DNA from: an uncultured Clostridium sp.
GTDB lineage: Bacteria > Bacillota > Clostridia > TANB77 > CAG-508
Direction of reading: 5' to 3'
DNA length: 64,000 nt
Assembly (NCBI GenBank): GCA_900553405.1
Contig: USDF01000001.1
Location: forward strand, 2,567-66,566
The notes under the pieces are model-generated. The model had not been told where the DNA came from, searched no databases, and saw only the letters and a list, made by a program, of their open reading frames with translations. The first letter of the stretch is position 1; the number at the start of each line of letters is the position of its first letter. The translations under genes were made by a program, and so were the position numbers. Shown here one piece after another: positions 1 to 47,670 of the stretch.

Positions 1-838
1 AGAAAGCATTATAATACCAAATCCCATAAGCATTATAATAAGTAAAGAAGAATAACCTTCTACATCTATTGCACCAGAAATTCTTCTGATTAATGTAACT
101 ATAAGTAAAATAAAAGCTGCAATAAAAGTTAAAACTCCTAAACCAGAAATAAATCTAATAGGGAAGTAAGAGAAACTTAAAATAGAATCTATTACTAATT
201 TTACTTTTTTAGAGAAGGTCCATCTAGATTTACCCGCTTCTCTTTTTAATCTAGTATATGGAACACTTGCTGTTTTAAAGCCACTCCATAAAATTTGACT
301 CATTAAAGATGTGTTTTTTTCAGCCATATTAACTAAAACGTCGATAACTTTTCTATCTATTAAGAAACTATCAAAACCACCTTTTGGATAATTTGGTAAA
401 GCAATTTTTCTCATCATATTTGCATATGTATTAGCTAAAAATGTTTGCATAAAAGATTCTTCTCTATCTGCTCTTGTTGCAATAACAACATCATTTCCTT
501 CATAGTATTTAGTAAGCATATCTATTATAAGTTCAGAAGGTTCTTGTAAATCTGCAGCTTTTCTAACAGCCATGTCTCCTGTACATCTAGAAAGACCTGC
601 TAATATAGCAGCATGTTCACCAAAATTTCTAGAAAGTCTCATTGTAACAATTTTATCGTCTAATTTTGCAATTTCTTGCATTACTTCATATGAATTGTCT
701 TTAGATCCATCATCTACAAAAATTAACTCATAATCAATTGAAAGCTTATTTAATACTTTTTCTCTTAAATCATTGTATAATGGAAGTAAACTTTCAGAGT
801 TATAGTATACTGGTACTATTATTGATAATTTTTTCATT
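1..838 (-). CDS. GT2 family glycosyltransferase (GtrB/ArnC-like polyprenyl-phosphate sugar transferase); C-terminus runs off window start
   Basis: Minus-strand translation starts MKKLSIIVPVYYNSESLLPLYNDLREKVL...FVDDGSKD, the typical DXD/GT-A N-terminus of bactoprenol glycosyltransferases. C-terminal TM helices present. Divergent from the downstream GT-C gene. Confidence 0.8.
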
Positions 839-969
839 TTAAAATCCCCTTTTATCAAAATGATATTATGCTCATTATTATATCACAAAAAAACAAAAAG
901 TAAACTAAAAAGACAAAAATATGCATAAAAATAGCACTTTTAAGGTTGTTGAAAAATGAAAAAAATTTA

Positions 970-998
970 TTGACTTTTTATATTTGCAAGTATATAAT
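970..998 (+). promoter_or_regulatory. sigma-A type promoter (TTGACT-17-TATAAT) upstream of GT-C/aminotransferase operon
   Basis: TTGACT at 970-975, 17-nt spacer, TATAAT at 993-998, about 40 nt upstream of the 1040 start. Confidence 0.45.
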
Positions 999-1039
999 AA
1001 AAATCACTATTATAAAGAGAAAAATAGGAAAATAAAAGG

Positions 1040-2383
1040 GTGAAAAAATTGAATAAAATACGTATTAAGGAAAAGTATATAAAAATAGCATTGATATTAC
1101 TTGTTTTTATGATGACACTTACTTGGGCAATTATACAACCAAATAATGAAGGACCAGATGAAGGCATGAAAATGGATATATGCCAATATATTGCGAACCA
1201 TGGAAAATTACCACATGGTGGAGAAGAAGAAATAAGAAATCCTATATGGGGAATATCTTATGGATTTACTCCAATATTATCTTATATAATAGGTGGATTG
1301 TTTGTAAAAATAGCAAGTAATTTTACTAGTGATATTCATATACTTTACATTGTTGCGAGATTAGTGAGTGTACTTTGCATTACAGCAATGAGTATAGTGA
1401 ATATAAAAATTGGAGAAAAACTATTTAAAAACAAATATTATAAATGGTTCTTTATAGTGCTTACAAGTGCATTGCCGCAAATAATATTTATAGGCTCTTA
1501 TATAAATAATGATTCATTAGCTTTGTTATCAATTTCAATTATCATATATGCTTGGTTGAATGGACTAGAAAACAAATGGAATATAAAGACTTGTATAATA
1601 TTTTCAATAGGATTAGCATTATGTGCCTTATCGTATTACAATGCATATGGTTATATATTAACAAGTGTAATTTTATTTATAGCATCATATTTTATAAATA
1701 AAAATGAAAATAACAAATTTGATTTTAAAAATATGTTTAAGAAAGGAATAATAATTGCTGGAATAACATTTTTATTATGTGGATGGTGGTTCATAAGAAA
1801 TGCAGTAATTTATAAAGGAGATTTCTTAGGACTAAGTACAGAGGAAGAATATTCTGAGCAATATGCTATGGAAGAATTTAAGCCAACTAATAGAAAAACT
1901 CCACAAAACACAAATATGGGATTATTTAATATGTTATTTAAAAAAGGTTGGGTAATTGTAACATTAAAGAGTTTTGTAGGAGTATTTGGAACAATGATAA
2001 TCACAATGGGAACAAAATTCTATTTACTTTACTTTGGAGTATTTGCTATTGGAATAATAGGATATATATCAAGATTTTATAAACTTAAACATATAAAAGA
2101 AGATAAAAATAAATCATTATTAGAAATAATATTTGGAATAAATATTGTGATACCAATTGGCTTAAGTATATATTATTCATATTGCAATGATTTTCAACCA
2201 CAAGGAAGATATATAATGCCAATGTTAATACCATTTATGTATTTTGTTGTATTAGGGTTAGAAAACATATTAGATAAATTTATAAAAAACAAAAAAGCAA
2301 AAAAAGTAGTACAAATTTTGATAATAATTATAGGAATATTATTGCCAATACATTGCCTAATAAGAATGATTCAAAAATATTAA
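1040..2383 (+). CDS. GT-C fold membrane glycosyltransferase (ArnT/PMT/GtrC-like, polyprenyl-phosphate-sugar dependent)
   Basis: 447 aa polytopic membrane protein. First periplasmic loop carries GPDEG (the DE motif of GT-C enzymes). Sits between the GT2 and aminotransferase genes. Confidence 0.6.
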   Translation: MKKLNKIRIKEKYIKIALILLVFMMTLTWAIIQPNNEGPDEGMKMDICQYIANHGKLPHGGEEEIRNPIWGISYGFTPILSYIIGGLFVKIASNFTSDIHILYIVARLVSVLCITAMSIVNIKIGEKLFKNKYYKWFFIVLTSALPQIIFIGSYINNDSLALLSISIIIYAWLNGLENKWNIKTCIIFSIGLALCALSYYNAYGYILTSVILFIASYFINKNENNKFDFKNMFKKGIIIAGITFLLCGWWFIRNAVIYKGDFLGLSTEEEYSEQYAMEEFKPTNRKTPQNTNMGLFNMLFKKGWVIVTLKSFVGVFGTMIITMGTKFYLLYFGVFAIGIIGYISRFYKLKHIKEDKNKSLLEIIFGINIVIPIGLSIYYSYCNDFQPQGRYIMPMLIPFMYFVVLGLENILDKFIKNKKAKKVVQILIIIIGILLPIHCLIRMIQKY

Positions 2384-2405
2384 TTATAGAAAGAGGAAAA
2401 ATAAA

Positions 2406-3545
2406 ATGATAGGATTTAATATACCACCAGTTATAGGAACTGAAGAAAAATATGTAAAACAAGCAATAGAAGCACATAAAATTTGCGGAGATGGAGAGTT
2501 TACAAAAAAGTGTAAAGAATGGATGGAAAATAGATTTAAAGCGGAAGAAGTTCTTCTTACAACTTCATGCTCTAGTGCTTTAGAAATGGCAGCACTTTTG
2601 GCAGATATAAAACCAGGAGACGAAGTTATTATGCCAGCATTCACATTTGTGTCTACTGCAAATGCATTTGTTTTAAGAGGGGCTAAAATAGTATTTGTTG
2701 ATATTAGACCAGATACTATGAATATAGATGAAAAATTAATAGAAGCGGCTATTACAGATAGAACTAAAGCGATAGTTCCTGTTCATTATGCAGGTGTAGC
2801 TTGTGAAATGGATAAAATATTAGAGATTGCTAAAAAACATAATTTATTAGTAATTGAAGATGCTGCACAAGGAGTTATGGCGAAATATAAAGATAAATAT
2901 TTAGGAACCATTGGAGATATAGGCTGTTATTCTTTCCATGAAACCAAAAATTATAGTTCTGGTGAAGGTGGAGCAGTAGTATTTAAAGATAATAGATATA
3001 CGGAAATGGCTGAAATTATAAGAGAAAAAGGAACTAATAGAAGTAAATTTTTTAGAGGTCAAGTAGACAAATATACATGGGTAGAATGTGGATCATCATA
3101 TTTGCCAAGTGATATAAATGCAGCATATTTATGGGCAGAATTAGAACAAGCAGATAGAATAAACGATAATAGACTTGATACATGGAATTATTATAATGAA
3201 AATTTAAAAATATTAGAAGATGAAGGATATATACAAAGACCTTACATTCCAGAAGAATGCAAACATAATGCACATATGTATTATATAAAAGCAAAAGATT
3301 TAGAGGAAAGAACAAATTTAATTAAATATTTAAAAGAAAATGGAGTACAAGCAGTATTTCATTATATTCCACTTCATACTGCACCAGCAGGAATTAAGTA
3401 TGGTAGATTTAATGGTGAAGATAAATATACAACAAAAGAAAGTGATAGATTATTAAGACTACCAATGTATTATAATCTACAAAAAGAAGACGCAGAAAAA
3501 GTGGTACAAACTATAAAAGATTTTTATACAAAGAATGTTAAATAA
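2406..3545 (+). CDS. DegT/DnrJ/EryC1 family PLP aminotransferase (WecE/ArnB-like, NDP-4-keto-sugar aminotransferase)
   Basis: N-terminus MIGFNIPPVIGTEEKYVKQAIEAHKICGDGEFTKKC matches the WecE/RffA start. Full-length 379 aa. Confidence 0.85.
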   Translation: MIGFNIPPVIGTEEKYVKQAIEAHKICGDGEFTKKCKEWMENRFKAEEVLLTTSCSSALEMAALLADIKPGDEVIMPAFTFVSTANAFVLRGAKIVFVDIRPDTMNIDEKLIEAAITDRTKAIVPVHYAGVACEMDKILEIAKKHNLLVIEDAAQGVMAKYKDKYLGTIGDIGCYSFHETKNYSSGEGGAVVFKDNRYTEMAEIIREKGTNRSKFFRGQVDKYTWVECGSSYLPSDINAAYLWAELEQADRINDNRLDTWNYYNENLKILEDEGYIQRPYIPEECKHNAHMYYIKAKDLEERTNLIKYLKENGVQAVFHYIPLHTAPAGIKYGRFNGEDKYTTKESDRLLRLPMYYNLQKEDAEKVVQTIKDFYTKNVK

Positions 3546-3569
3546 TTTTTGTAAAAGAGGAATTTAAAT

Positions 3570-4724
3570 ATGAAGAAAATAGCGATAATTGGAGCAAATG
3601 ATTTTCAAAATCCATTAATATTAAAAGCAAAAAGTTTAGGATACGAAACACATGTATTTGCATGGCAAGACGGATCTATTGGAGAAAAAACTGCAGATTA
3701 TTTTTATCCAATAAGTATAGTAGAAAAAGATGAAATTTTAAAAAAGTGTAAAGAAATAGGAATAGATGCAATTGCAACAATAGCATCAGATTTAGCAACA
3801 TTAACAGTTAACTATGTGGCTGAAAAATTAGGATTGCCAGGAAATTCTCTAGAATGCACTAAAAAGTCTACAAATAAATATGAAATGAGAAAGGCATTTA
3901 AAGAAACGGGAGTAGCAACTCCTGGATTTGAAATAGTATCTTCTCCTGAAGATATAGAAAAATTAAGTAATATGGAATATCCACTAATTGTAAAACCTAC
4001 AGACAGATCAGGAAGTAGAGCCATTACCAAAATTTATAAAAAAGAAGAGTTAGAAGAAGCAATTTCAAAAGCTATAGAAAATTCATTTGAGAAAAAAGCA
4101 ATAGTAGAAGAATATATTGAAGGAAATGAATTTAGTGCAGAAGGAATAACATACAATGGAGAACATAAATTTCTAACAATTACAAGAAAAGCAACTACTG
4201 GAGCACCTCATTTTATAGAAACAGGTCATATTGAGCCAGCAGGGCTTACTAAGAATATGGAAGAAAAAATTTATAATGAACTTACAAAAGCATTAACAGC
4301 ATTAAAAATAACTAATAGTGCAACACATTCAGAATTTAAAATTACACCTAACGGAGATATTAGAATAATTGAGATAGGTGCAAGAATGGGCGGAGATTGT
4401 ATAGGTTCAGATTTAGTACAAATTTCCACAGGATATGATTTTGTAAAAATGGTTATAGATGTAGCAATGGGAAATAAACCTTCATTTGAAAAGGTAACAG
4501 AGCCTAAAATAGCAGTTATAAGATTCATATTTAATAAAAAAGACCTAGAAGATTTTGAAAGAGTAAAAAAAGAAGCACCAGAATTAATCTATTTTGTAAG
4601 CAAAATAGAAGATATTTCCTCACACAAAGTTGTAGATAGTTCTTCAAGATTTGGATTTTATATACTTGCGTGTGAAAATAAAGAAAAGATTAGGTGGTTA
4701 TTGAACGAAGATGAACAATATTAA
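3570..4724 (+). CDS. ATP-grasp domain ligase
   Basis: 384 aa. N-terminal pre-ATP-grasp fold (KKIAIIGANDF), then the central ATP-grasp (EYPLIVKPTDRSGSRAI...EEYIEGNEFSAEG). Translationally coupled to the neighbouring genes. Confidence 0.75.
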   Translation: MKKIAIIGANDFQNPLILKAKSLGYETHVFAWQDGSIGEKTADYFYPISIVEKDEILKKCKEIGIDAIATIASDLATLTVNYVAEKLGLPGNSLECTKKSTNKYEMRKAFKETGVATPGFEIVSSPEDIEKLSNMEYPLIVKPTDRSGSRAITKIYKKEELEEAISKAIENSFEKKAIVEEYIEGNEFSAEGITYNGEHKFLTITRKATTGAPHFIETGHIEPAGLTKNMEEKIYNELTKALTALKITNSATHSEFKITPNGDIRIIEIGARMGGDCIGSDLVQISTGYDFVKMVIDVAMGNKPSFEKVTEPKIAVIRFIFNKKDLEDFERVKKEAPELIYFVSKIEDISSHKVVDSSSRFGFYILACENKEKIRWLLNEDEQY

Positions 4725-5142
4725 TAGTAATGGAAATTTCGAAAATATAGAAGAACAAAGAAGTTTAGAATTAAAAGATAAAAGTAATGCTAAAAAAGAT
4801 AAGAAAAAATTTATTAAAAACATTATAATACTCCAAGTAATAATTCTTATTTATACATTGTCAACAGTAACAGCAAAATTTGCATCAAATGAAGAATTCT
4901 TAAGCCTAAAATTTATATTGTTTTATGGTCTAGAAATATTTATACTAGGTGTTTATGCAATACTTTGGCAACAAATAATAAAGAAATTTGAAATATCAGT
5001 TGCGTATGCTAATAGAGCAATGTCTCTTTTATGGTCAATAGTATGGGCAATAGTATTTTTTGGAGAACAAATTACCTTAAAAAATGTAATAGGAGTAATA
5101 ATTGTAATAATAGGTACAATTATAGTGAATAGCGATGAATAG
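4711..5142 (+). CDS. small 4-TM DMT/SMR-like membrane protein (ArnE/EamA-like flippase subunit)
   Basis: 143 aa: hydrophilic N-terminus followed by 4 predicted TM helices. Overlaps the next small membrane gene by 8 nt. Confidence 0.55.
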   Translation: MNNINSNGNFENIEEQRSLELKDKSNAKKDKKKFIKNIIILQVIILIYTLSTVTAKFASNEEFLSLKFILFYGLEIFILGVYAILWQQIIKKFEISVAYANRAMSLLWSIVWAIVFFGEQITLKNVIGVIIVIIGTIIVNSDE

Positions 5143-5470
5143 TTATGTGTTTTTATTAATAGCCTCTGTTTTAATAGCGTCATGCTCACAAATAATATTA
5201 AAAAAGAGTGCATCAAAAGAGTATAGTTCAATTATTAGAGAATATTTAAATGTAAGAGTAATTGTAGGATATGGAATGATGTTTATATCTACAATACTTA
5301 CAATATTTGCATTTAAAGGTTTAGATTATAAAAATGGCCCAATAATTGAATCTTTAGGATACATATTTATAATGTTTTTAAGTAGAATTTTTCTAAAAGA
5401 AAAAATAACAAAGAAAAAAATAATAGGTAATTCGTTAATACTTTTAGGAATATTAGTATTTTATATTTAA
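5135..5470 (+). CDS. small 4-TM DMT/SMR-like membrane protein (ArnF-like flippase subunit)
   Basis: 111 aa, 4 hydrophobic helices. Paired with the preceding gene like the ArnE/ArnF heterodimer. Confidence 0.55.
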   Translation: MNSYVFLLIASVLIASCSQIILKKSASKEYSSIIREYLNVRVIVGYGMMFISTILTIFAFKGLDYKNGPIIESLGYIFIMFLSRIFLKEKITKKKIIGNSLILLGILVFYI

Positions 5471-5471
5471 A

Positions 5472-5514
5472 AAGGACATTTTGGGACTTACTCACTTTTG
5501 CTCTTTACATAAAA
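5472..5514 (+). repeat. copy A (degenerate) of a dispersed ~42-nt 3'-intergenic hairpin repeat
   Basis: aaggacattttgggacttactcacttttgctctttacataaaa. Related copies at 8083, 37892 and 50116. Confidence 0.6.
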
Positions 5515-5528
5515 CTACAAAGTATCAA

Positions 5529-5561
5529 TGTCAATAGGGATGCTCCTTATTGACATTTTTT
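5529..5561 (+). terminator. rho-independent terminator
   Basis: tgtcaatagggatgctccttattgaca, a 12-bp stem, followed by TTTTTT. Confidence 0.8.
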
Positions 5562-5608
5562 GTGTAGTAATATAATATTAATTTAAATAGAAAAGAAAGT
5601 AGGAAAAT

Positions 5609-6484
5609 ATGAAATATATATTTATAATAAATGCTATAGCAGGTAGAGGAAGATATAAAAAGATATTACCAAATATAGAAAAAATATGTAAAGAAAGAAA
5701 CATTGAATATGAAATAAGATATATTTCAGAAGAAAAAGATGGTTCACAAATAGCTTTAGAATACAAAGACGAAGAAAATGTAATATATGTAGTTGGTGGA
5801 GATGGAACAATAACAAGGACTTTGGCTGGTATAGTAGGAACAAAAAATAAATTAGGTGTTATTCCATCAGGTTCTGGAAATGATACGTATAGAACAATAA
5901 AAATGTTACCAGATAAAGAAACTAAAATAGATTTAGCTAAAATAAATGATACTTATTTTATAAATGTAGCATGTACAGGTGTAGATGCTGAAGTTGCAAA
6001 TAACATAGATAAATTAAGGAAAACAAAAATTCCGACAAGTCAACTTTATAATGCAAGTATTGTGTATACGTTTGTGAATTTTAAACATAAAAGAATGAAA
6101 CTTCATACAAGTATAAAAGATATTGATTCAAAATATACAATATTAAGTATATGTAATGGCGCGTATTATGGAGGAGGATTTAATATAGCTCCAAAAGCAG
6201 AATTAACAGATGGACTTTTAGATATTTATTATGCAGAAAAAATGTCTAAAATAAAGATGATACCGCTTCTACTAAAAATGAAAAGAGGAAAACATGAAGG
6301 AAAAAGAAAAATACATAAATTTAGGACAAATCACGTAGAAATAGATTTTGAAGAAGAAATTACATTTAATGTAGATGGAGAAAAAGTAACTAATAATCAT
6401 TTTACAATAGATATTTTACCGAAAATAATTACAGTATATAATGATGATGAATTTGTTGAAGAAGTAATAAAAGGAAAAAATTAA
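5609..6484 (+). CDS. diacylglycerol/lipid kinase family protein (DAGK_cat; YegS/DgkB-like)
   Basis: IFIINAIAGRGR ... VVGGDGT...GVIPSGSGND are the conserved DAGK catalytic-domain motifs. Confidence 0.8.
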   Translation: MKYIFIINAIAGRGRYKKILPNIEKICKERNIEYEIRYISEEKDGSQIALEYKDEENVIYVVGGDGTITRTLAGIVGTKNKLGVIPSGSGNDTYRTIKMLPDKETKIDLAKINDTYFINVACTGVDAEVANNIDKLRKTKIPTSQLYNASIVYTFVNFKHKRMKLHTSIKDIDSKYTILSICNGAYYGGGFNIAPKAELTDGLLDIYYAEKMSKIKMIPLLLKMKRGKHEGKRKIHKFRTNHVEIDFEEEITFNVDGEKVTNNHFTIDILPKIITVYNDDEFVEEVIKGKN

Positions 6485-6599
6485 TAATTTAGAAAAATAA
6501 ATTACCAAATTGGCACGGAAAAAATGGCAAAAATATAAATTATAATATACATTTATGATAAGATAATAAGCATAAAAATAAAATGAAAGAGGGAGAATA

Positions 6600-8012
6600 A
6601 TGAGAAAAATAAAAACTTTATCAATATTATTTATAGCATGCTTATTAGCTAGTTTAATATTTCCAATGTATGTAAATAAAGTATATGCTGGAATCAAAAA
6701 TGAAGTAACATTAAATTTTAAAGGTGGAACAATTCATGATGGCTATGTAGAATATAGCAAAAAAGCGAAATTACAATTATTCAAAGGAGATGAGTTAGTT
6801 ACTAATATTTCAAATAATATGGTAATTGATTTAAACGAAGCAGAGTACAAGTTTGTAATTGAAGAAATTGAAGATTCAAGTCTTTCTAGTGTTAATACCC
6901 ACATAAGATTAAATATTAATAATTGGTATTACCCAATGACAACAATAGTAGGTGAAGCTAAATCTACATTCAAATTAGAATCAAGTAAATTTAGTGGAAC
7001 ATTAGATGTTAAATTTGTAAGAACCAATATTGCTATTAACACAACAGTTAAAAATGTTTATAATGATATATCATCAAAAGGTGTAATAGATTTGACTAAT
7101 GGTAAAGAATATGTAATAGATTTTTCTAAAACTGATGAATTGACAGAAGGATTAAAATCATTTGCAGATTTAGACAAAACACTATATTATAAGAGAAGCA
7201 ATGATGGTCTATTAGCAACAGACAATGAAAGTGAAGCTGTTATAAAGATTGTTGGAAATAGGTCAGAGAATAAAGCAATATTAACTGCAGTAAATGTTGG
7301 AACTAAAAAAAATGAAGTTTTTAAAGGATTTCATACTCAATATACAGGTTCTAAATTGAGTTTTACTGGCTCAGATGGTGAAATTTTGAATGAAACAAGA
7401 TTTGATTATTATACTAGATGTACTTATGATTACACATTTAAATATGTAAAAGAAGAAGTTAAACCAAAAGAGTATAAAGTTATTGAAGGTGCAAACCAAA
7501 AATACACAATAGATGAATCAAAAAATGCAACATTTAGAATAAATGCAGAATATAATATATTTGAAAATGGTGGAAAAGTATATGTAGATAATACTTTAGT
7601 AGATAATAACAATTATACTTCTAAATCAGGTAGCACAATAATAACTTTAAAAGATGCTTATTTAAAAACATTGTCTGTTGGAGAACATACTTTGAAAGTA
7701 GCTTTTACAGATAGTGGAGAAGCAACAACTAAGTTTGAAATAGCTAAAAAAGTAGAAGAAAATAAAGACAATAACAGCAATAATAACAATAGTAATAAAA
7801 ATGATAATAACAATAATAATAATAATGACAACAGCGATAACAACGATAATATTGATAATACTACTTCAAACACAGAAAACGAAAATAAAGAAGAAATTAT
7901 CTCAAATCCAAAAACTGGAGATAATGTAATGCTATATGTAACAATAGCAAGTGTGTCAATATTAGTTTTAGGAGCAACAACAATGGTTTCTAGAAAGAGA
8001 AAAATGAATTAA
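6600..8012 (+). CDS. cell-wall anchored surface protein with NPKTG (sortase B-type) sorting signal
   Basis: N-terminal signal peptide (MRKIKTLSILFIACLLASLIFPMYVNKVYA). Asn/Asp-rich low-complexity linker. C-terminal NPKTG + hydrophobic stretch + RKRKMN tail. Confidence 0.7.
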   Translation: MRKIKTLSILFIACLLASLIFPMYVNKVYAGIKNEVTLNFKGGTIHDGYVEYSKKAKLQLFKGDELVTNISNNMVIDLNEAEYKFVIEEIEDSSLSSVNTHIRLNINNWYYPMTTIVGEAKSTFKLESSKFSGTLDVKFVRTNIAINTTVKNVYNDISSKGVIDLTNGKEYVIDFSKTDELTEGLKSFADLDKTLYYKRSNDGLLATDNESEAVIKIVGNRSENKAILTAVNVGTKKNEVFKGFHTQYTGSKLSFTGSDGEILNETRFDYYTRCTYDYTFKYVKEEVKPKEYKVIEGANQKYTIDESKNATFRINAEYNIFENGGKVYVDNTLVDNNNYTSKSGSTIITLKDAYLKTLSVGEHTLKVAFTDSGEATTKFEIAKKVEENKDNNSNNNNSNKNDNNNNNNNDNSDNNDNIDNTTSNTENENKEEIISNPKTGDNVMLYVTIASVSILVLGATTMVSRKRKMN

Positions 8013-8037
8013 AATAATAAAAAACATCAATATATAA

Positions 8038-8068
8038 AACAAGGTATATTAAATGCCTTGTTTTTTTA
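8038..8068 (+). terminator. rho-independent terminator
   Basis: acaaggtatattaaatgccttgt followed by a T-run. Confidence 0.7.
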
Positions 8069-8082
8069 TAATATAAATGATA

Positions 8083-8127
8083 TAAATAATGCAAAGGACA
8101 TTTGGGGACGGGTCACATTTGTCCTTT
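8083..8127 (+). repeat. copy B of dispersed 3'-intergenic hairpin repeat
   Basis: aaggacatttggggacgggtcacatttgtcctttgtaaattgaaa. Confidence 0.7.
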
Positions 8128-8346
8128 GTAAATTGAAATATAAAAAATGAAAAATTTTGTTTCATATTATAAAAATACCTTAAATCCTGTGTTATTTAGT
8201 GTTGTTTAGTATCGTTTGACCTTTTGAAAATGAACAAAATAGCATTAAATAATATTAAACATAACTAAACGAAAAAATTAAATTTGAGACTTTTATTCGT
8301 CTTAATTAGTCTCAATAAAAAATAACATATGAAAGGAGTAAAATAA

Positions 8347-9372
8347 ATGAGTAATATAACAATTGGAAATGAAAAAAATATTTTATTTTATAGTGATGAA
8401 AATGGACAAACCAAAGTAGAAGTAATTCTACAAGATGAAAATGTTTGGTTAAATGTAAATGCAATAGCTACTCTTTTTGATGTACAAAGACCTGCTATTG
8501 TAAAGCATATAAATAATATATACAATGATGAAGAATTAAGTAGGAAATCAACTTGTTCCATTTTGGAACAAGTTCAAGTGGAGGGAACTCGAAGTGTTAA
8601 AAGGCAAAAGGAATATTATAATCTAGATATGATTATTTCTATCGGGTTTAGAGTTAATTCTAAAAAAGCAATTAAATTTAGAACTTGGGCAAATAAGATA
8701 ATTAAAGATTATATGATACAAGGTTTTGCACTTGATGATAATAGATTTATGAAATCAAGAAAATCTGATCAAGAATATTTTAAAAGATTACTTGAAAGAA
8801 TAAAATTAATTCGTACTAGTGAGAGAATGTTTTATCAAAAAATTACAGATATCTTTGCTGAGTGTTCTATTGATTATGATAAAAATAGCGATATAGCAAA
8901 AGATTTTTATGCAACTATTCAAAATAAATTTCACTATGCTATTACTGGGAGTACTGCAGCAGAAATTATTTACAACAGAGTTGATAGTCAAAAAGTGAAT
9001 ATGGGATTAACAAATTGGGATAAATCTCCTGATGGAAAAATCTTAAAATCAGATGTTTCTGTTGCTAAAAATTATTTAGATGAAAAAGAAATAAAAAAAC
9101 TAAATAATTTGGTGAACTTATTTTTAGATATTGCAGAAAATAATGCAGAAAGAAATTTATCAATGAGTATGAATGAATGGAAGAATGAAGTAGAAACATC
9201 TTTAAAATTATTTCATTATGATGTATTGCAAGGCAAAGGAAAAATCTCTGCTGAAAAAGCAAAACAAAAAGCAGAAAATGAATATGAAAAATACAAAATT
9301 ATACAAGATAAAAAATTTGTTTCTGATTTTGATAAATTACTAATTGAAACAGAAAAGATAGAAAAGCATTAG
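8347..9372 (+). CDS. RhuM-family protein (virulence-associated / Fic-DOC-related DNA-binding family)
   Basis: 341 aa. N-terminus (ILFYSDENGQTKVEVILQDENVWLNVNAIATLF) recalled as typical of RhuM-family proteins. Confidence 0.55.
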   Translation: MSNITIGNEKNILFYSDENGQTKVEVILQDENVWLNVNAIATLFDVQRPAIVKHINNIYNDEELSRKSTCSILEQVQVEGTRSVKRQKEYYNLDMIISIGFRVNSKKAIKFRTWANKIIKDYMIQGFALDDNRFMKSRKSDQEYFKRLLERIKLIRTSERMFYQKITDIFAECSIDYDKNSDIAKDFYATIQNKFHYAITGSTAAEIIYNRVDSQKVNMGLTNWDKSPDGKILKSDVSVAKNYLDEKEIKKLNNLVNLFLDIAENNAERNLSMSMNEWKNEVETSLKLFHYDVLQGKGKISAEKAKQKAENEYEKYKIIQDKKFVSDFDKLLIETEKIEKH

Positions 9373-19885: not shown

Positions 19886-19998
19886 CGCGTGAAGAAGGAC
19901 TTGAACCTTCAACCTTCAGGAAAACAACTTGTGATACCTAGCTAGGATTTTTGAAATATACACAAGTACCTTACGCTCTACCAATTGAGCTACTCACG
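19886..19998 (-). other. aberrant tRNA-like gene (canonical acceptor, D and T arms; ~40-nt insertion in the anticodon region)
   Basis: Minus strand: GCGTGAG-TA-GCTCAATTGGTAGAGC-G-TAAGGT[ACTTGTGTATATTTCAAAAATCCTAGCTAGGTATCACAAGT]TGTTTTCCTGAAGGTTGAAGGTTCAAGTCCTTCTTCACGC. The insert has 7-bp terminal inverted repeats (ACTTGTG/CACAAGT) and an internal palindrome CCTAGCTAGG. Confidence 0.45.
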
Positions 19999-20236
19999 CA
20001 AACCCTTAAATAAAATTGAATTATTTTAATATGTTTATTATTCTAGCATGTTAAAACAAAAAAGTCAACATAATTTTTAAAAAAATTAAAAAATATGCCA
20101 AAAATAGAAAATTTAAATAAAATATTAAATTGAAAACAAAAAAATTAAATAAATCATTATAACTATATAGTAATGAATATAAAATAAAAAAATGAACAAA
20201 ATAGAAATATATAAAATAATGAAAGGTGGTATAAAA

Positions 20237-35297: not shown

Positions 35298-35657
35298 ATG
35301 TCAAAAAATGAGTTCATATGTGATTGTAATGTTATTCATCAAGATGTAGTTGCAAGCACAAAAGAAAAGATGACAGATGAATATTTATTTAGTAAACTTG
35401 CAGAATTTTTTAAAATACTAGGAGATATAACAAGAGCTAAAATATTATTTGCATTAGATCAAAATGAAATGTGTGTATGTGATATAGCAAACGTGCTTGG
35501 AATGACCAAATCATCAATATCACATCAGCTTGGAACATTAAGAAGATCTGGAATAGTAAAATGTAGAAAACAAGGAAAAGAAGTATATTATATGTTAGAT
35601 GATGAACATGTAAGTAGATTATTCGAGTTAGGAATAGAGCATATAGAACATAAATAA
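35298..35657 (+). CDS. cadC: ArsR/SmtB family metal-sensing repressor (CadC-like)
   Basis: HTH region plus metal-binding Cys (CDC N-terminal; MCVCDIA alpha-3 site). Confidence 0.8.
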   Translation: MSKNEFICDCNVIHQDVVASTKEKMTDEYLFSKLAEFFKILGDITRAKILFALDQNEMCVCDIANVLGMTKSSISHQLGTLRRSGIVKCRKQGKEVYYMLDDEHVSRLFELGIEHIEHK

Positions 35658-35723
35658 AAGCTATTTATGAGTTAAAAAGTAGTCAGTAAGTTTAAAAGTA
35701 AAAAATGAAAGGAAGGATTTATT

Positions 35724-35945
35724 ATGAAAAAAGTATTAAAATTAGAAGGATTAGATTGCGCAAATTGTGCAGCAGAATTAGAAAATAGAATAAACAAAGT
35801 AGAAGGAGTAGAAAACGTATCTGTTAGTTTCATGACACAAAGATTAACTTTTGAATGTAATGAAGAAATATTAGAAGAAAAATTAAAAGAAATTAAGAAA
35901 ATAATAAAGAAAGAAGAACCAGACGTTGAAGTTGAAGAAATCTAA
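35724..35945 (+). CDS. heavy-metal-associated (HMA) domain metallochaperone
   Basis: GLDCANCAAELE = MxCxxC-type HMA motif. 73 aa. Confidence 0.75.
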   Translation: MKKVLKLEGLDCANCAAELENRINKVEGVENVSVSFMTQRLTFECNEEILEEKLKEIKKIIKKEEPDVEVEEI

Positions 35946-36052
35946 CTGAAATAAATGTTATTAGATATTTGTTTAACAAATGATTAAAATTCAAAAAGAA
36001 AGAGTGTGTATTTTTAATTTATATAATACACATTAAATGAGGAATTTATAGA

Positions 36053-37891
36053 ATGAAAAAAAGAGCAAGAAAAATTATAATAGCATTAGTTTTGTTTGCA
36101 ATTGCATTATTAATACCATTTTCATATGAATGGATAAATAATGTGATATTTATTGCAAGTTATTTAATAGTTGGTTTAGAAATAGTATTAAAAGCAATAA
36201 GAAATATAACAAGAGGAAAAGTATTTGATGAAAATTTTCTTATGGCAATAGCAACTATAGGAGCATTTGCAGTAGGCGAATTTCCAGAAGCAGCAACAGT
36301 TATGATACTTTATCAAATAGGCGAATTGTTCCAAAGTTATGCAGTAGATAAATCAAGAAAATCTATATCAAGTTTAATGGATATTAGACCAGATTATACA
36401 AATGTAAAAAGAGAAAATGAAGTTTTAAAAGTTTCACCAGAAGAAGTAAAAATAGGAGAACTAATCGTAGTAAAACCAGGAGAAAAAATTCCATTAGATG
36501 GAGTTATCGAAGAAGGAAAATCTATGTTAGATACTTCAAGTTTAACAGGGGAATCTATGCCACAAGACGTAAATATAGGAGACAACGTTTTAAGTGGATG
36601 TATAAATAAAAGTGGATTATTAACAATAAAAGTAACAAAAGAATTTGGAGAGTCTACAGTAAGCAAAATACTAGATTTAGTAGAAAATGCAAGTAGTAAA
36701 AAATCAAAATCTGAAAACTTTATTACTAAATTCGCTAAATATTATACTCCAGCTGTAGTAATAATAGCAGTAATTTTAGCTGTTGTACCACCAATTATTA
36801 TAAAAGATGCCGTATTTACAGATTGGTTATATAGAGCTTTAACATTTTTAGTAGTATCATGCCCATGTGCACTTGTAATATCAATACCACTAGGATTCTT
36901 TGGAGGAATAGGTGGAGCTTCTAAAAAAGGAATATTAGTAAAAGGAAGTAATTACCTAGAAGCTTTAGCACAAACAGAAATAGTTGTATTTGATAAAACA
37001 GGTACACTAACAGAGGGAATTTTTGAAGTACAAAAAATAGAAACAGTAGATATAAAAAAAGAAGAACTTTTAGAATTAGCAGCATATGCAGAAAATCATT
37101 CAAACCATCCAATATCTTTATCTGTAAAAAATGCATATAAAAATAAAATAGATATGAAAAAAATTACAGAAACAGAGGAAATAGCAGGACTAGGAGTTAA
37201 AGCAATAATAGACGGAAAACAAGTGCTAGTTGGAAACGATAAATTAATGGAACAAGCAAAAATTAGTTATGAAAAATCAACAGATATAGGAACTATATTA
37301 TATGTTGCAATAGATAACAAATTTGCAGGATATATCGTAATTGCAGATAAAATAAAGAATGATTCTAAAAAAACAATAGAAATTTTAAAAGGAAATAACA
37401 TTAAAAAAACAGTTATGCTTACAGGAGACAAAAAACAAGTAGGCGAGCATGTAGCTGATATTTTAGGATTAGACGAAGTTTATACAGAACTACTACCAGA
37501 CGGAAAAGTAAAAAAAGTAGAAGAATTATTAAAACAAAAAAGCGAAAAAGGAAAACTTGTATTTGTTGGTGATGGAATAAATGATGCACCAGTATTAGCT
37601 CTAGCAGATATAGGAATTGCAATGGGGGGACTTGGTTCAGATGCTGCAATAGAGGCTGCAGATGTTGTAATAATGACAGACGAACCATCTAAAATAGGAA
37701 ATGCAATACAAATTTCTAAAAAAACAATGAGAATAGTTCGTGAAAATATAATTTTTTCATTAGTAGTTAAAATAGCCGTATTAATTTTAAGTGCATGTGG
37801 ATTATCTACAATGTGGGAAGCAGTATTCGCAGATGTAGGAGTATCTATTATAGCAATATTAAATTCATTAAGAGTATTAAGAAATAAATAA
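36053..37891 (+). CDS. cadA: P1B-type heavy-metal (Cd/Zn) translocating ATPase
   Basis: CPC motif (VSCPCALVIS), DKTGTLT phosphorylation site, GDGINDAP hinge. Confidence 0.9.
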   Translation: MKKRARKIIIALVLFAIALLIPFSYEWINNVIFIASYLIVGLEIVLKAIRNITRGKVFDENFLMAIATIGAFAVGEFPEAATVMILYQIGELFQSYAVDKSRKSISSLMDIRPDYTNVKRENEVLKVSPEEVKIGELIVVKPGEKIPLDGVIEEGKSMLDTSSLTGESMPQDVNIGDNVLSGCINKSGLLTIKVTKEFGESTVSKILDLVENASSKKSKSENFITKFAKYYTPAVVIIAVILAVVPPIIIKDAVFTDWLYRALTFLVVSCPCALVISIPLGFFGGIGGASKKGILVKGSNYLEALAQTEIVVFDKTGTLTEGIFEVQKIETVDIKKEELLELAAYAENHSNHPISLSVKNAYKNKIDMKKITETEEIAGLGVKAIIDGKQVLVGNDKLMEQAKISYEKSTDIGTILYVAIDNKFAGYIVIADKIKNDSKKTIEILKGNNIKKTVMLTGDKKQVGEHVADILGLDEVYTELLPDGKVKKVEELLKQKSEKGKLVFVGDGINDAPVLALADIGIAMGGLGSDAAIEAADVVIMTDEPSKIGNAIQISKKTMRIVRENIIFSLVVKIAVLILSACGLSTMWEAVFADVGVSIIAILNSLRVLRNK

Positions 37892-37932
37892 AGGACATTT
37901 GGGAACGGGTCACTTTTGTCCTATACATAAAA
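37892..37932 (+). repeat. copy C of dispersed 3'-intergenic hairpin repeat
   Basis: aggacatttgggaacgggtcacttttgtcctatacataaaa, immediately after the cadA stop. Confidence 0.7.
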
Positions 37933-38052
37933 TAGACGAATATAACTTCGCCTATTTTAGTGTTTATTGTAAACTATTAGAGATGGACCATTTTAGTTTA
38001 GTAAATTTATTATATTTTGCCCTCAAAACTAAAACGCCCCGTCACTAATAGT

Positions 38053-42036: not shown

Positions 42037-42043
42037 CGTGGCA

Positions 42044-47667: not shown

Positions 47668-47670
47668 AAA

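What the first reader, a model, noticed from the sequence alone, without database searches (positions are those of the whole stretch)
1..5561. Arn/Gtr-like lipid-linked aminosugar modification operon that uses an ATP-grasp ligase in place of a formyltransferase
The gene set mirrors the Gram-negative arn pathway logic: a GT2 ArnC/GtrB-like enzyme charging undecaprenyl phosphate, a GT-C ArnT/PMT-like enzyme transferring from the lipid carrier on the outer face, an ArnB/WecE-type NDP-4-keto-sugar aminotransferase, and a pair of ~110-140-aa 4-TM proteins like the ArnE/ArnF flippase. The N-acylating/formylating enzyme position is taken by an ATP-grasp ligase, which would attach a carboxylate (amino acid or organic acid) to the sugar amine. 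In a Gram-positive this most likely decorates teichoic acid or a wall polysaccharide with a cationic or zwitterionic amino-acyl-aminosugar, with CAMP-resistance or phage-receptor implications. The dehydratase/oxidase making the 4-keto sugar is not in the window.
Basis: partly seen in the sequence, partly recalled or inferred. Interest (0 to 1): 0.58.

Follow-up and report, generated by a model that had tools for sequence, protein, structure and literature searches.

The report
Lipid-linked acylated aminosugar decoration cassette
A six-gene cassette, conserved across many uncultured and cultured gut Clostridia, most likely makes an N-acylated 4-amino-6-deoxy sugar, loads it on a lipid carrier, flips it and attaches it to a cell-surface polymer; the chemistry has never been described for these bacteria.

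Summary
The genes are real: a GtrB/ArnC-type GT2 (1-837, minus strand, divergent, cut by the window edge) and a + strand operon 1040-5470. The operon encodes a DUF2142 GT-C-fold transferase, a WecE aminotransferase (65% identical to E. coli WecE), an ATP-grasp ligase and two small EamA/SMR-like membrane proteins. It has a promoter-like site at 970-998 and a terminator-like hairpin at 5527-5557.

In 61 species-level loci, the ATP-grasp gene lies within 6 kb of WecE (59), GT2 (58), the small-protein pair (56-57) and a GT-C-like protein (53), in several gene orders. WecE–ATP-grasp and ATP-grasp–EamA fusions exist.

Best reading: dTDP-Fuc4N is N-acylated by the ATP-grasp, moved to undecaprenyl phosphate, flipped, and transferred outside the cell.

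It works like Arn and like Gram-positive multi-component glycosylation, but it fails Arn membership. The closest precedent for the ligase is Neisseria PglB2, where an ATP-grasp replaces an acetyltransferase.

The acyl group and the acceptor are unknown. No rmlA/rmlB is in the window, nor in the ~6 kb upstream in close relatives. I rate it a new variant of a known kind, interest 0.55.

The parts
1..837 (-). GT2 polyprenyl-phosphate glycosyltransferase (GtrB/ArnC/PgfS-like). The first 279 of 316 codons are present; the C-terminus is cut by the window edge.
   Evidence: Pfam Glycos_transf_2, 79 bits. The full protein from L001 matches GtrB sll0501 (5EKP, 175 bits) and ArnC structures (144-153 bits) over its full length. 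NCBIfam PgfS 216 bits and ArnC 169 bits, both below cutoff. Two C-terminal hydrophobic helices at residues 232-250 and 265-283. Non-canonical 'RKAADLQEP' in place of 'MDxDLQDPP'.
877..904 (-). Promoter-like site for the GT2 gene.
   Evidence: TTTACT-16-TATAAT with an upstream TG, 10/12 matches. Consensus match only.
970..998 (+). Promoter-like site for the five-gene operon.
   Evidence: TTGACT-17-TATAAT, 11/12 matches; joint-highest match count (11 of 12) among sites in 1-8400. Consensus match only.
1040..2383 (+). DUF2142 membrane protein, a GT-C-fold glycosyltransferase (447 aa).
   Evidence: Pfam DUF2142, 49.6 bits. Homologues also carry PMT_2/PMT hits. AF2 model pLDDT 93.4. The top 42 Foldseek PDB hits are all GT-C-fold membrane proteins — mostly glycosyltransferases (STT3/AglB/PglB, Pmt4, ArnT, ALG9/12, Emb, DPY19) plus GPI-transamidase PIG-U chains. 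D40-E41 after TM1, N156/D158, D261, D384 and R390 are invariant in 41-50 homologues.
2406..3545 (+). WecE-type dTDP-4-keto-6-deoxy-D-glucose 4-aminotransferase (379 aa).
   Evidence: NCBIfam TIGR02379 654 bits (cutoff 435) and PRK11706 650 bits (cutoff 375). 560 bits to E. coli WecE 4PIW; 65% identity. The 'SFHETKN' segment (which I take, from memory, to hold the PLP lysine) is identical to E. coli WecE in the alignment.
3570..4724 (+). ATP-grasp carboxylate-amine ligase (384 aa), the proposed N-acylase of the sugar 4-amine.
   Evidence: Pfam ATP-grasp_4, 90 bits. PDB best hits are 4DIM and the L-amino-acid ligases BL00235 and BacD. AF2 model pLDDT 90; Foldseek TM 0.82 to BL00235. E268/R272/G274-G275 are invariant. 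Fused to WecE in L014 and L026, and to EamA1 in L009. Relatives at 37-38% identity are fused to a Bac_transf phosphoglycosyltransferase, the PglB2 architecture.
4711..5142 (+). Small EamA/SMR-like membrane protein 1 (143 aa, with a hydrophilic N-terminal 36 residues); candidate flippase subunit.
   Evidence: Pfam EamA, 27.8 bits. NCBIfam ArnE 32 bits and ArnF 22 bits, below cutoffs. Start codon overlaps the ATP-grasp stop by 14 nt. Present in 56/61 loci.
5135..5470 (+). Small EamA/SMR-like membrane protein 2 (111 aa); candidate flippase subunit.
   Evidence: Pfam EamA, 36.9 bits. Of 66 family members scanned, 56 hit the ArnF model and 54 the ArnE model; 38 hit EbrB. Overlaps EamA1 by 8 nt. Present in 57/61 loci.
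5527..5557 (+). Terminator-like hairpin followed by a T-run; end of the operon.
   Evidence: 14-pair stem with 4 GC pairs, then TTTTTGTG.

Best explanation
The cassette is a self-contained donor-plus-transfer module that decorates an extracytoplasmic polymer of a monoderm gut Clostridium with an N-acylated 4-amino-4,6-dideoxyhexose.

Proposed steps:
1. dTDP-4-keto-6-deoxy-D-glucose, made by RmlA/RmlB encoded elsewhere, is transaminated by the WecE orthologue to dTDP-Fuc4N. This is inferred from orthology. The galacto configuration is assumed from 65% identity to E. coli WecE.
2. The ATP-grasp enzyme activates a free carboxylic acid as an acyl phosphate and couples it to the C4 amine. It takes the place of the acetyl-CoA-dependent WecD/PglB acetyltransferase and pulls the transamination forward. 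This is inferred. The acid is most likely an amino acid, less likely a hydroxy acid such as glycerate.
3. The membrane-anchored GT2 transfers the acylated sugar from dTDP to undecaprenyl phosphate (inferred from GtrB/ArnC homology).
4. The two small EamA/SMR-like proteins act as a heterodimeric flippase for the Und-P-sugar (inferred from ArnE/ArnF-like similarity and strict linkage).
5. The DUF2142 GT-C enzyme transfers the sugar on the outer face to an acceptor, probably a wall polysaccharide or teichoic acid. The fold is shown by modelling; the acceptor is inferred.

What is shown directly: gene content, family membership, fold, synteny and fusions. No biochemical step has been shown.
For: Family assignments:
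- WecE scores above the curated cutoffs and is 65% identical to E. coli WecE.
- The GT2 matches GtrB and ArnC structures over its full length and has two C-terminal TM helices.
- The DUF2142 model has pLDDT 93.4, and its top 42 PDB matches are all GT-C-fold proteins. An invariant D40-E41 follows TM1.
- The ATP-grasp has invariant Mg/catalytic-Arg residues E268 and R272. Its nearest solved relatives are L-amino-acid ligases. The mechanism of that class is described in PMC9486568.

Coupling of the genes:
- 56-59 of 61 species-level loci keep WecE, GT2 and both small proteins within 6 kb of the ATP-grasp, in several gene orders. 53 of 61 have a GT-C-like protein: DUF2142 in 38, YfhO in 5, DUF6056 in 3, and DUF6020 and/or an unclassified polytopic membrane protein ('memb12', no Pfam hit) in 7.
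- WecE–ATP-grasp single ORFs occur in two species, and ATP-grasp–EamA1 fusions occur in L009; two database homologues (P0110, 504 aa; P0118, 507 aa) have the matching length but their C-terminal parts were not checked.
- RmlA/RmlB lie next to the cassette in 6-8 of the 61 loci, and in a Blautia variant.

Precedent and wider pattern:
- In Neisseria PglB2, an ATP-grasp domain replaces the acetyltransferase and gives a 4-glyceramido sugar (PMC11130364, PMC6959607).
- Proteins with that architecture are 37-38% identical to this ATP-grasp and sit directly after a DegT aminotransferase.
- ATP-grasp relatives sit near (within one to three genes of) DegT aminotransferases in capsule loci of Bacteroides, Parabacteroides and Enterococcus.

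Hints that the acid is an amino acid:
- An ATP-grasp fused to a hexapeptide acyltransferase (P0261).
- A PglD-like acetyltransferase beside the ATP-grasp in L056.
- An ATP-grasp fused to a PLP enzyme of the amino-acid-handling family.
- LAL_C2 domains in relatives.
Against: - No biochemical or compositional data exist for any member.
- No rmlA/rmlB is in the window or in the ~6 kb upstream in close relatives. Precursor supply in this organism is therefore unverified.
- The GT2 carries 'AAD' where the family has the metal-binding 'DxD'. GtrB-type enzymes are known with UDP/GDP donors, not dTDP donors (my own knowledge).
- The small proteins score only 17-32 bits against the ArnE/ArnF models, and 38 of 66 scanned members (more than half) also hit SMR efflux models.
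- The ATP-grasp family at about 34% identity also occurs in a non-sugar context: a Providencia plasmid, between radical SAM and MFS genes.
- The one genetically characterised precedent, PglB2, adds glycerate rather than an amino acid.
- The order of acylation and lipid transfer is not determined. The ATP-grasp–EamA1 fusion would also fit acylation at the membrane.
Confidence: 0.62

Rival explanations
1. Same pathway, but the ATP-grasp attaches a hydroxy acid such as D-glycerate (or another non-amino acid), as Neisseria PglB2 does. The decoration would then be neutral, not cationic or zwitterionic.
For: PglB2 is the only genetically characterised ATP-grasp acting at the 4-amine of a 4-amino-6-deoxyhexose, and it yields a glyceramido sugar (PMC11130364, PMC6959607). 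PglB2-architecture proteins are 37-38% identical to this ATP-grasp, closer than L-amino-acid ligases at 24-25%. In 20 of 61 loci an SDR accompanies the ATP-grasp, sometimes with a second DegT. One SDR–ATP-grasp fusion exists. This would fit oxidation and transamination of a hydroxyacyl group.
Against: The window's minimal cassette has no SDR. Relatives carry LAL_C2 domains and fusions to hexapeptide acyltransferase or to amino-acid-type PLP enzymes. Direct comparison with the Neisseria PglB2 sequence was not possible.
Confidence: 0.22
2. The acceptor is protein. The cassette is a Pgf-like O-glycosylation system that modifies sortase-anchored surface proteins, such as the NPKTG-anchored protein encoded at 6600-8012.
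For: The GT2's best NCBIfam hit is PgfS of the S. mutans protein-glycosylation system, at 216 bits. The GT-C model matches protein O-mannosyltransferase Pmt4 with the highest query TM-score, 0.60. An NPKTG-anchored protein lies about 1 kb downstream in the window and in L004/L005.
Against: PgfS scores well below its cutoff of 500. The surface-protein gene is missing from L006 and L022, which are 88-97% identical in the ATP-grasp, and from all more distant loci. Distant loci sit in rhamnose/ABC-transporter/LtaS/GDPD/YfhO contexts typical of wall polymers. The surface-protein gene lies beyond the terminator-like hairpin (5527-5557) that ends the operon, with the lipid-kinase gene in between.
Confidence: 0.15
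3. The acylation is transient, as N-formylation is in the Arn pathway. The acyl group only drives the transamination and gates lipid transfer. It is removed after flipping, leaving a free cationic Fuc4N on the polymer.
For: This is the logic of the Arn pathway (my own knowledge of ArnA/ArnD). A polysaccharide deacetylase family gene lies near the DegT–ATP-grasp genes in the Bacteroides finegoldii locus.
Against: No deacylase or polysaccharide-deacetylase gene is in the window cassette or among the recurrent neighbours of the 61 loci. Spending ATP on a group that is then discarded is costly.
Confidence: 0.08
4. The linkage is incidental. The ATP-grasp makes a small peptide or metabolite, the two small proteins are an SMR-type efflux pair exporting it or drugs, and only GT2/GT-C/WecE belong to glycosylation.
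For: 38 of 66 small-protein members also hit the EbrB SMR efflux model. The nearest solved ATP-grasp relatives make dipeptides. A 34%-identical ATP-grasp sits next to an MFS transporter on a Providencia plasmid.
Against: In-frame WecE–ATP-grasp fusions occur in two species. The ATP-grasp, WecE, GT2 and the small pair co-occur in 56-59 of 61 loci despite rearranged gene order. The cassette genes have overlapping, likely translationally coupled starts. ArnE/ArnF are the most frequent hits, in 54-56 of 66 members.
Confidence: 0.04

Closest known systems
Multi-component (three-component) transmembrane glycosylation systems of Firmicutes: CsbB/GtcA/YfhO, GtlA/GtlB, GacI/J/K/L, CsdAB (review PMC8035078)
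   Same: A membrane-linked GT-A/GT2 charges undecaprenyl phosphate. A small flippase moves the lipid-linked sugar. A GT-C-fold enzyme with an acidic motif in an outer loop transfers a single sugar to LTA, WTA or a wall polysaccharide. In some related loci the GT-C partner is a YfhO protein.
   Different: Known systems add Glc, Gal or GlcNAc taken directly from housekeeping UDP-sugars, and they use GtrA- or Wzx-type flippases. Here the cassette carries its own donor-tailoring enzymes (WecE plus ATP-grasp), the donor is presumably a dTDP-6-deoxy-aminosugar, the flippase candidates are an ArnE/ArnF-like pair, and the GT2 has AAD instead of DxD.
Arn (PmrHFIJKLM) L-Ara4N lipid A modification pathway of Gram-negative bacteria
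   Same: The overall logic matches: 4-transamination of a nucleotide 4-keto sugar, N-acylation of the amine before lipid transfer, an ArnC-like GT2, a pair of small 4-TM proteins as flippase, and a GT-C transferase on the outer face.
   Different: There is no ArnA (oxidative decarboxylase/formyltransferase) and no ArnD. The aminotransferase is WecE-type, not ArnB-type. The sugar is a dTDP-hexose, not a UDP-pentose. Acylation is ATP-dependent from a free acid, not from formyl-THF. The GT-C is DUF2142, not ArnT. The host is monoderm, so the acceptor is not lipid A. All Arn equivalog models score below cutoff.
Neisseria PglB2 (ATP-grasp/phosphoglycosyltransferase), which makes glyceramido-acetamido-trideoxyhexose (GATDH)
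   Same: An ATP-grasp takes the place of the acetyltransferase that normally caps the 4-amino group of a 4-amino-4,6-dideoxyhexose nucleotide. Proteins with the same Bac_transf+ATP-grasp architecture are 37-38% identical to this ATP-grasp and follow a DegT aminotransferase.
   Different: PglB2 works on a UDP-2-acetamido sugar, is fused to a phosphoglycosyltransferase that makes Und-PP-sugar, and feeds an oligosaccharyltransferase-dependent protein glycosylation pathway. Here the ATP-grasp is free-standing (or fused to WecE or EamA1), the sugar is dTDP-linked without a 2-acetamido group, and the carrier is Und-P with GT-C transfer. The Neisseria sequence itself could not be compared.
Enterobacterial common antigen Fuc4NAc branch (RmlA, RmlB, WecE, WecD)
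   Same: The WecE orthologue is 65% identical, so the same dTDP-4-amino-4,6-dideoxyhexose intermediate is expected.
   Different: There is no WecD acetyltransferase, no WecF/WzxE/WzyE, and no Und-PP-linked repeat unit. An ATP-grasp acylation and Und-P/GT-C delivery take their place.
L-amino-acid ligases (BacD/YwfE, BL00235, RizA)
   Same: They share the ATP-grasp fold (TM 0.71-0.83) and the catalytic Glu/Arg/Gly-Gly motif, which implies acyl-phosphate chemistry.
   Different: Identity is only 19-25%. The genomic context is sugar biosynthesis rather than peptide antibiotics. The amine partner is inferred to be a nucleotide sugar. No LAL_C2 domain was detected in the window protein.

Membership tests
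Multi-component transmembrane glycosylation system (Gram-positive; PMC8035078) | Membrane-linked GT-A-fold glycosyltransferase that makes a C55-P-sugar | tested here: met
   Met by homology only. The GT2 matches GtrB (175 bits) and ArnC (144-153 bits) structures over its full length, and has two C-terminal TM helices. Caveat: the DxD motif is replaced by AAD.
Multi-component transmembrane glycosylation system (Gram-positive; PMC8035078) | GT-C-fold multi-spanning glycosyltransferase with a DxD or modified acidic motif in an extracellular loop | tested here: met
   AF2 model pLDDT 93.4. The top 42 PDB matches are all GT-C-fold proteins. An invariant D40-E41 follows TM1.
Multi-component transmembrane glycosylation system (Gram-positive; PMC8035078) | GtrA-type or Wzx-type flippase | tested here: not met
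   No GtrA or Wzx gene is in the cassette. Two EamA/SMR-like half-size proteins are present instead. A flippase role for them is inferred.
Multi-component transmembrane glycosylation system (Gram-positive; PMC8035078) | Sugar is transferred to LTA, WTA or a wall polysaccharide outside the cell | not testable with these tools
   Only contextual hints from related loci: YfhO, LtaS-like, GDPD, RmlABD and ABC-2 transporter genes.
Arn L-Ara4N pathway | ArnA (UDP-GlcA oxidative decarboxylase plus formyltransferase) and ArnD deformylase | tested here: not met
   No such genes are in the window cassette or among recurrent neighbours.
Arn L-Ara4N pathway | ArnB aminotransferase | tested here: not met
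   The ArnB model NF008658 scores 198 bits against a cutoff of 631. The WecE models score 650-654 bits, above their cutoffs.
Arn L-Ara4N pathway | ArnC, ArnE/ArnF and ArnT equivalogs | tested here: not met
   ArnC scores 169 bits against a cutoff of 529. ArnE scores 17-32 bits against 92, and ArnF 19-22 against 99. The GT-C is DUF2142 with no NCBIfam hit. The resemblance is at superfamily level only.
WecE dTDP-4-amino-4,6-dideoxyhexose transaminase | Score above the curated family cutoff, and a conserved PLP lysine | tested here: met
   TIGR02379 654 bits (cutoff 435) and PRK11706 650 bits (cutoff 375). 65% identity to E. coli WecE, including the 'SFHETKN' segment, which I take from memory to hold the PLP lysine.
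PglB2-type sugar-amine ATP-grasp acylase | ATP-grasp domain that replaces an N-acetyltransferase next to a 4-aminotransferase; same family as Bac_transf–ATP-grasp fusion proteins | tested here: met
   P0348 and P0363 (Bac_transf + ATP-grasp) are 37-38% identical, with E-values of 1e-58 to 1e-61 against 1.84 billion proteins. For P0348 (the only one whose contig was examined) a DegT gene lies directly upstream.
PglB2-type sugar-amine ATP-grasp acylase | Direct homology to Neisseria PglB2, and a glyceroyl product | not testable with these tools
L-amino-acid ligase (LAL) family | ATP-grasp fold with catalytic Glu/Arg | tested here: met
   Fold and motif are met.
L-amino-acid ligase (LAL) family | LAL C-terminal domain (LAL_C2) in the window protein | tested here: not met
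   LAL_C2 was not detected in the window protein, although it is present in relatives.
L-amino-acid ligase (LAL) family | Dipeptide-forming activity | not testable with these tools
   Enzyme activity is untestable with these tools.

The most novel reading that the evidence does not exclude
Gut Clostridia, and more broadly many Bacillota, possess a previously unrecognised envelope-charge-modifying system, which would be functionally parallel to D-alanylation and to Gram-negative L-Ara4N addition. An ATP-grasp ligase aminoacylates dTDP-Fuc4N. A GtrB-like enzyme with a non-canonical AAD motif uses this dTDP donor to charge undecaprenyl phosphate. An ArnE/ArnF-type heterodimer flips the product in a monoderm. 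Interchangeable GT-C enzymes (DUF2142, YfhO, DUF6056) place the zwitterionic or cationic sugar on different wall polymers. The result would shape antimicrobial-peptide resistance, phage adsorption and immune recognition.
Probability: 0.3. Interest if true: 0.72.

Novelty: new variant of a known kind. Interest (0 to 1): 0.55.

Why it matters
Very little is known chemically about the cell envelopes of the abundant, mostly uncultured gut Clostridia.

This cassette predicts a specific, testable surface decoration: an N-acyl, probably aminoacyl, Fuc4N delivered through undecaprenyl phosphate. The pattern-limited genome scan found relatives of the ATP-grasp in 314 stretches of species-representative genomes. 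The ATP-grasp belongs to a family of about 1,000 clusters at 50% identity with E ≤ 1e-30.

If confirmed, four things would follow:
- A new donor type (dTDP-6-deoxy-aminosugar) and a new tailoring step (ATP-grasp N-acylation) would be added to Gram-positive extracellular glycosylation.
- ArnE/ArnF-type flippases would be extended to monoderms.
- A biochemical function would be assigned to a large family of unnamed ATP-grasp proteins that sit beside sugar aminotransferases in capsule loci of Bacteroides, Enterococcus and others.
- A candidate determinant of antimicrobial-peptide resistance, phage receptor specificity or zwitterionic-glycan immunomodulation in commensals would be identified.

Tried and rejected
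**Searches that found nothing useful**
- Sequence and profile searches of the DUF2142 protein against PDB found nothing. Its GT-C status therefore had to come from a structure model.
- Eight full-text literature searches found no paper describing the cassette. One query was rejected for syntax, and one was too broad to be useful.
- Chamot-Rooke 2007 and Viburiene 2013, both on PglB2, are not held. A direct comparison with PglB2 was therefore impossible.
- Cluster look-ups gave no informative names for the fusion proteins. Database names for homologues are only 'ATP-grasp domain-containing protein' and 'DUF2142 domain-containing protein'.

**The missing dehydratase**
- There is no rmlA/rmlB in the window.
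- Upstream of the GT2 gene in L004, L005 and L022 lie a small membrane protein, SmpB, FBP aldolase, an RNase J-like protein and an FtsH-like protein.

**Ideas rejected**
- That the SDR found in 20 related loci is the missing dehydratase. By my own reading of one representative sequence it lacks the Asp-Glu of the RmlB-type 'TDEVYG' motif; in family scans it scores only 80-95 bits against RmlB/GalE models, and it co-occurs with a true RmlB.
- A formate-dependent, PurT-like formylase. PurT-type models score about 39 bits, against 79-146 bits for LAL-like models, and PurT ranks 49th in the fold search. This is not excluded.
- Membership of the Arn system (see the membership test).
- The Providencia plasmid hit, which proved to be an unrelated radical-SAM/MFS context.

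Full report
**1. What is in the sequence**

The window has about 26% G+C. Region 1-5561 holds six genes.

On the minus strand, 1-837 encodes the first 279 residues of a family-2 glycosyltransferase. An identical metagenomic contig, L001, gives the complete 316-aa protein. The gene is divergent from the rest, so the set is not a single operon.

The + strand unit comprises:
- a 447-aa DUF2142 membrane protein (1040-2383);
- a 379-aa DegT-family aminotransferase (2406-3545);
- a 384-aa ATP-grasp protein (3570-4724);
- two small membrane proteins of 143 and 111 aa (4711-5142 and 5135-5470).

The last three genes overlap, by 14 and 8 nt. A promoter-like site with 11 of 12 matches lies at 970-998. 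A 14-pair hairpin followed by a T-run lies at 5527-5557.

The rest of the window is housekeeping: uvrB, uvrA, cmk, murD, secA, purA, mutL, sufBD and rho. The cassette is a stand-alone insert, not part of a large polysaccharide locus.

**2. Family assignments**

*GT2.* It matches the polyprenyl-phosphate glycosyltransferases GtrB (5EKP, 175 bits) and ArnC (144-153 bits) over its whole length. It has the two C-terminal hydrophobic helices of that family. NCBIfam ranks PgfS (216 bits) and ArnC (169 bits) first, both far below their cutoffs.

*Aminotransferase.* It exceeds the curated cutoffs of both WecE models, at 654 bits against 435 and 650 against 375. The ArnB model reaches 198 bits against a cutoff of 631. 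It is 65% identical to E. coli WecE over 375 columns, and the 'SFHETKN' segment is identical to E. coli WecE in that alignment; that this segment holds the PLP lysine is my recollection, not a tool result.

*DUF2142 protein.* It has no sequence match in the PDB, even as a 41-sequence profile. Close homologues do carry precomputed PMT_2/PMT Pfam hits. An AlphaFold2 model built on 50 homologues has mean pLDDT 93.4. Its 42 best Foldseek matches in the PDB are all GT-C-fold proteins: mostly glycosyltransferases (STT3/AglB/PglB, Pmt4 with TMq 0.60, ArnT, ALG9/ALG12, EmbA-C, DPY19, AftA), plus several GPI-transamidase PIG-U chains. D40-E41, directly after the first transmembrane helix, are invariant. 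So are N156, D158, D261, D384 and R390. This fits the acidic outer-loop motif expected of GT-C enzymes (PMC8035078).

*ATP-grasp protein.* It hits ATP-grasp_4 (90 bits). Its nearest solved relatives are 4DIM, an uncharacterised structural-genomics target, and the L-amino-acid ligases BL00235, BacD/YwfE and RizA, by both sequence and modelled fold (pLDDT 90; TM up to 0.83). E268 and R272, in 'IEIGARMGG', are invariant. I assign these, by analogy rather than by alignment, to the Mg-binding acidic residue and the catalytic arginine that position the carboxylate and stabilise the acyl phosphate in this enzyme class (PMC9486568).

*Small proteins.* They are half-size EamA/SMR-like proteins. Of 66 family members scanned, 56 hit the ArnF model and 54 the ArnE model. 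38 also hit the SMR protein EbrB. All scores are below the curated cutoffs.

**3. Is the association real?**

A scan of one genome per GTDB species found 314 stretches encoding relatives of the ATP-grasp. 80 loci were fetched, nearly all from Clostridia MAGs of human, ruminant and rabbit guts. A few come from cultured species: Roseburia amylophila, Laedolimicola spp., Anaerosacchariphilus hominis and Clostridium amylolyticum.

In the 61 loci with at least 4.5 kb on both sides, these lie within 6 kb of the ATP-grasp gene:
- WecE in 59;
- the GT2 in 58;
- EamA2 in 57 and EamA1 in 56;
- a GT-C-like protein in 53 (DUF2142 38; YfhO 5; DUF6056 3; DUF6020 and/or an unclassified polytopic protein 7).

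Gene order differs between groups. The GT2 can be divergent upstream, co-directional upstream, or downstream of the EamA pair. The linkage is therefore maintained by selection rather than by simple inheritance of one block.

Three further observations tie the parts together:
- WecE and the ATP-grasp are one continuous ORF (764-767 aa) in two species, L014 and L026.
- The ATP-grasp is fused to EamA1 in L009; two database homologues (P0110, P0118) have a matching length of 504-507 aa, but their C-terminal parts were not examined.
- Two genomes carry two paralogous cassettes each: OV788638.1 (L032 and L078) and CAKPGC01 (L019 and L072).

RmlA/RmlB are adjacent in 6-8 of the 61 loci. In a Blautia variant, a bona fide RmlB (483 bits against a cutoff of 365) directly precedes an ATP-grasp–PLP-enzyme fusion, a second ATP-grasp and the EamA pair. 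More distant loci lie inside wall-polymer clusters with RmlD, ABC-2 transporter pairs, further GT2/GT4 genes, LtaS-like, GDPD, GtrA and CotH genes.

**4. The missing precursor genes**

No rmlA/rmlB relative is in the 64-kb window. In the three closest relatives (94-97% identity in the ATP-grasp), the 6 kb upstream of the GT2 encode a small membrane protein, SmpB, FBP aldolase, an RNase J-like protein and an FtsH-like protein. Precursor supply must be encoded elsewhere. I could not search the whole genome.

**5. Most likely mechanism**

The proposed steps, all inferred unless stated otherwise, are:
1. dTDP-4-keto-6-deoxyglucose is converted to dTDP-Fuc4N by WecE.
2. The ATP-grasp N-acylates the C4 amine with a free carboxylic acid.
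3. The GT2 transfers the sugar to undecaprenyl phosphate.
4. The EamA1/EamA2 pair flips the lipid-linked sugar.
5. The DUF2142 GT-C transfers it to an extracytoplasmic acceptor.

The sugar has no carboxylate, so in an ATP-grasp reaction it can only be the amine partner.

The order of steps 2 and 3 is not fixed by the data. The WecE fusion favours acylation at the nucleotide stage. The EamA1 fusion shows at least that the ligase works at the membrane.

The variable GT-C partner suggests a conserved donor module (WecE, ATP-grasp, GT2, EamA pair) combined with an acceptor-specific transferase.

**6. Which acid?**

This is unresolved. Several points favour an amino acid:
- The nearest characterised relatives are L-amino-acid ligases.
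- Relatives carry the LAL_C2 domain.
- A 50%-identical relative is fused to a hexapeptide acyltransferase (P0261).
- L056 has a PglD-like acetyltransferase beside the ATP-grasp. On a sugar with a single amine, that enzyme would need a second amine to act on.
- A 55%-identical Blautia relative is fused to a PLP enzyme of the D-cysteine desulfhydrase/ACC deaminase family.

Other points favour a hydroxy acid:
- The only genetically characterised case, Neisseria PglB2, gives a glyceramido sugar (PMC11130364, PMC6959607).
- Proteins with the PglB2 architecture (Bac_transf + ATP-grasp) are 37-38% identical to the window protein and follow a DegT gene.
- An extended SDR accompanies the ATP-grasp in 20 of 61 loci, sometimes with a second DegT-like protein. 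This could convert a hydroxyacyl group into an aminoacyl group. That idea is speculation.

The window cassette has no SDR, so the acid is probably a common metabolite.

**7. Comparison with known systems**

*What it works like.* It resembles the Arn pathway and the multi-component transmembrane glycosylation systems of Firmicutes (PMC8035078).

*Membership.*
- It meets the GT-A and GT-C criteria of the Firmicute systems. Its flippase candidates are not GtrA- or Wzx-type, and its sugar is not one of the known Glc/Gal/GlcNAc.
- It fails Arn membership on every tested feature.
- The aminotransferase is a true WecE.
- The ATP-grasp belongs to a large unnamed family: 1,007 clusters at 50% identity with E ≤ 1e-30. 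Three of the four annotated plasmid-borne relatives examined sit near (within one to three genes of) sugar 4-aminotransferases in capsule loci of Bacteroides, Parabacteroides and Enterococcus.

**8. Novelty and verdict**

No paper describing the cassette was found in eight full-text searches of a limited library. Database names are generic.

The individual principles are known: Und-P-linked extracellular glycosylation, and an ATP-grasp replacing an acetyltransferase on a 4-amino sugar. The following appear new:
- the combination of the two;
- the dTDP-6-deoxy-aminosugar donor;
- an ArnE/ArnF-like pair in a monoderm;
- the non-canonical AAD motif of the GT2;
- the modular swapping of GT-C partners.

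I rate it a new variant of a known kind, with interest 0.55. Confidence in the general mechanism is 0.62. Confidence that the acyl group is an amino acid is roughly even.

Noticed in passing
window 19886-19999 (-): An Rfam tRNA match (47.7 bits, full model 1-71) has 48 nt where the 7-nt anticodon loop should be. ARAGORN finds no tRNA anywhere in the window. It may be a tRNA with a short insert or intron, or a tRNA-like element.
   Followed up: partly
window 1-837 (-); L001:133-1083 (-): The GT2 has 'RKAADLQEP' where GtrB/ArnC-type enzymes have 'MDxDLQDPP'. The first Asp of the metal-binding DxD is Ala and is preceded by Lys. This is conserved in 34 of 72 GT2s from related loci. Other loci have MDCDLQDRP or DDDGQxP. 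It may reflect an unusual donor or altered metal dependence.
   Followed up: partly
L014:8855-11158, L026:8855-11149, L009:10001-11524: There are natural gene fusions: WecE–ATP-grasp (764-767 aa) in two species, and ATP-grasp–EamA1 (507 aa) in another. P0110 and P0118 have a similar length.
   Followed up: yes
L032 and L078 (both OV788638.1); L019 and L072 (both CAKPGC01): Two paralogous cassettes occur in one genome. One resembles the window's cassette. The other has an extra SDR, and its GT2/EamA/DUF2142 genes lie downstream of the ATP-grasp.
   Followed up: partly
L088-L090 (Blautia sp. contigs): This variant module runs RmlB, an ATP-grasp fused to a PLP enzyme of the D-cysteine desulfhydrase/ACC deaminase/CuyA family (722 aa, 128 members at 90% identity), a second ATP-grasp with LAL_C2, and the EamA pair.
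   Followed up: partly
window 5609-6484 (+) and 6600-8012 (+): A YegS/DgkB-type lipid kinase follows the cassette terminator (a promoter-like site lies at 5550-5578, upstream of its start). After it comes a 470-aa NPKTG-anchored surface protein with an Asn/Asp-rich stalk. Both are kept in L004 and L005; the kinase is also kept in L006; both are absent from L022 and all more distant loci. DAG kinase recycles the DAG produced by LTA synthesis (my own knowledge), so this is a weak hint towards LTA.
   Followed up: partly
window 8347-9372 (+): A RhuM-family gene (338 bits) lies between the surface-protein gene and uvrB. In L004 that interval is only about 140 bp (about 225 bp in L005). The gene therefore looks like a strain-specific insertion.
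   Followed up: partly
window 54478-55845 (+) and 55821-56813 (+): A radical SAM/SPASM protein is followed by an overlapping 330-aa ORF with no Pfam hit. It may be a peptide-maturation pair.
   Followed up: no
L049, L051, L064: These loci are labelled Prevotella sp., Alistipes onderdonkii and Thermoguttaceae, but they have Lachnospiraceae-type layouts. L064 has gene coordinates and identities identical to the Roseburia amylophila locus L061. These are probably mis-binned or contaminant contigs in the public assemblies.
   Followed up: no
L084 (Bacteroides finegoldii plasmid 2, record 35347-54345): DegT, two tandem ATP-grasp genes, an NAD(P) oxidoreductase and a glycosyltransferase lie next to an LTA-synthase-family gene. 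On the other strand are GtrA, GT2 and polysaccharide-deacetylase genes. This is a Bacteroidota counterpart with an Arn-like deacylase candidate.
   Followed up: no
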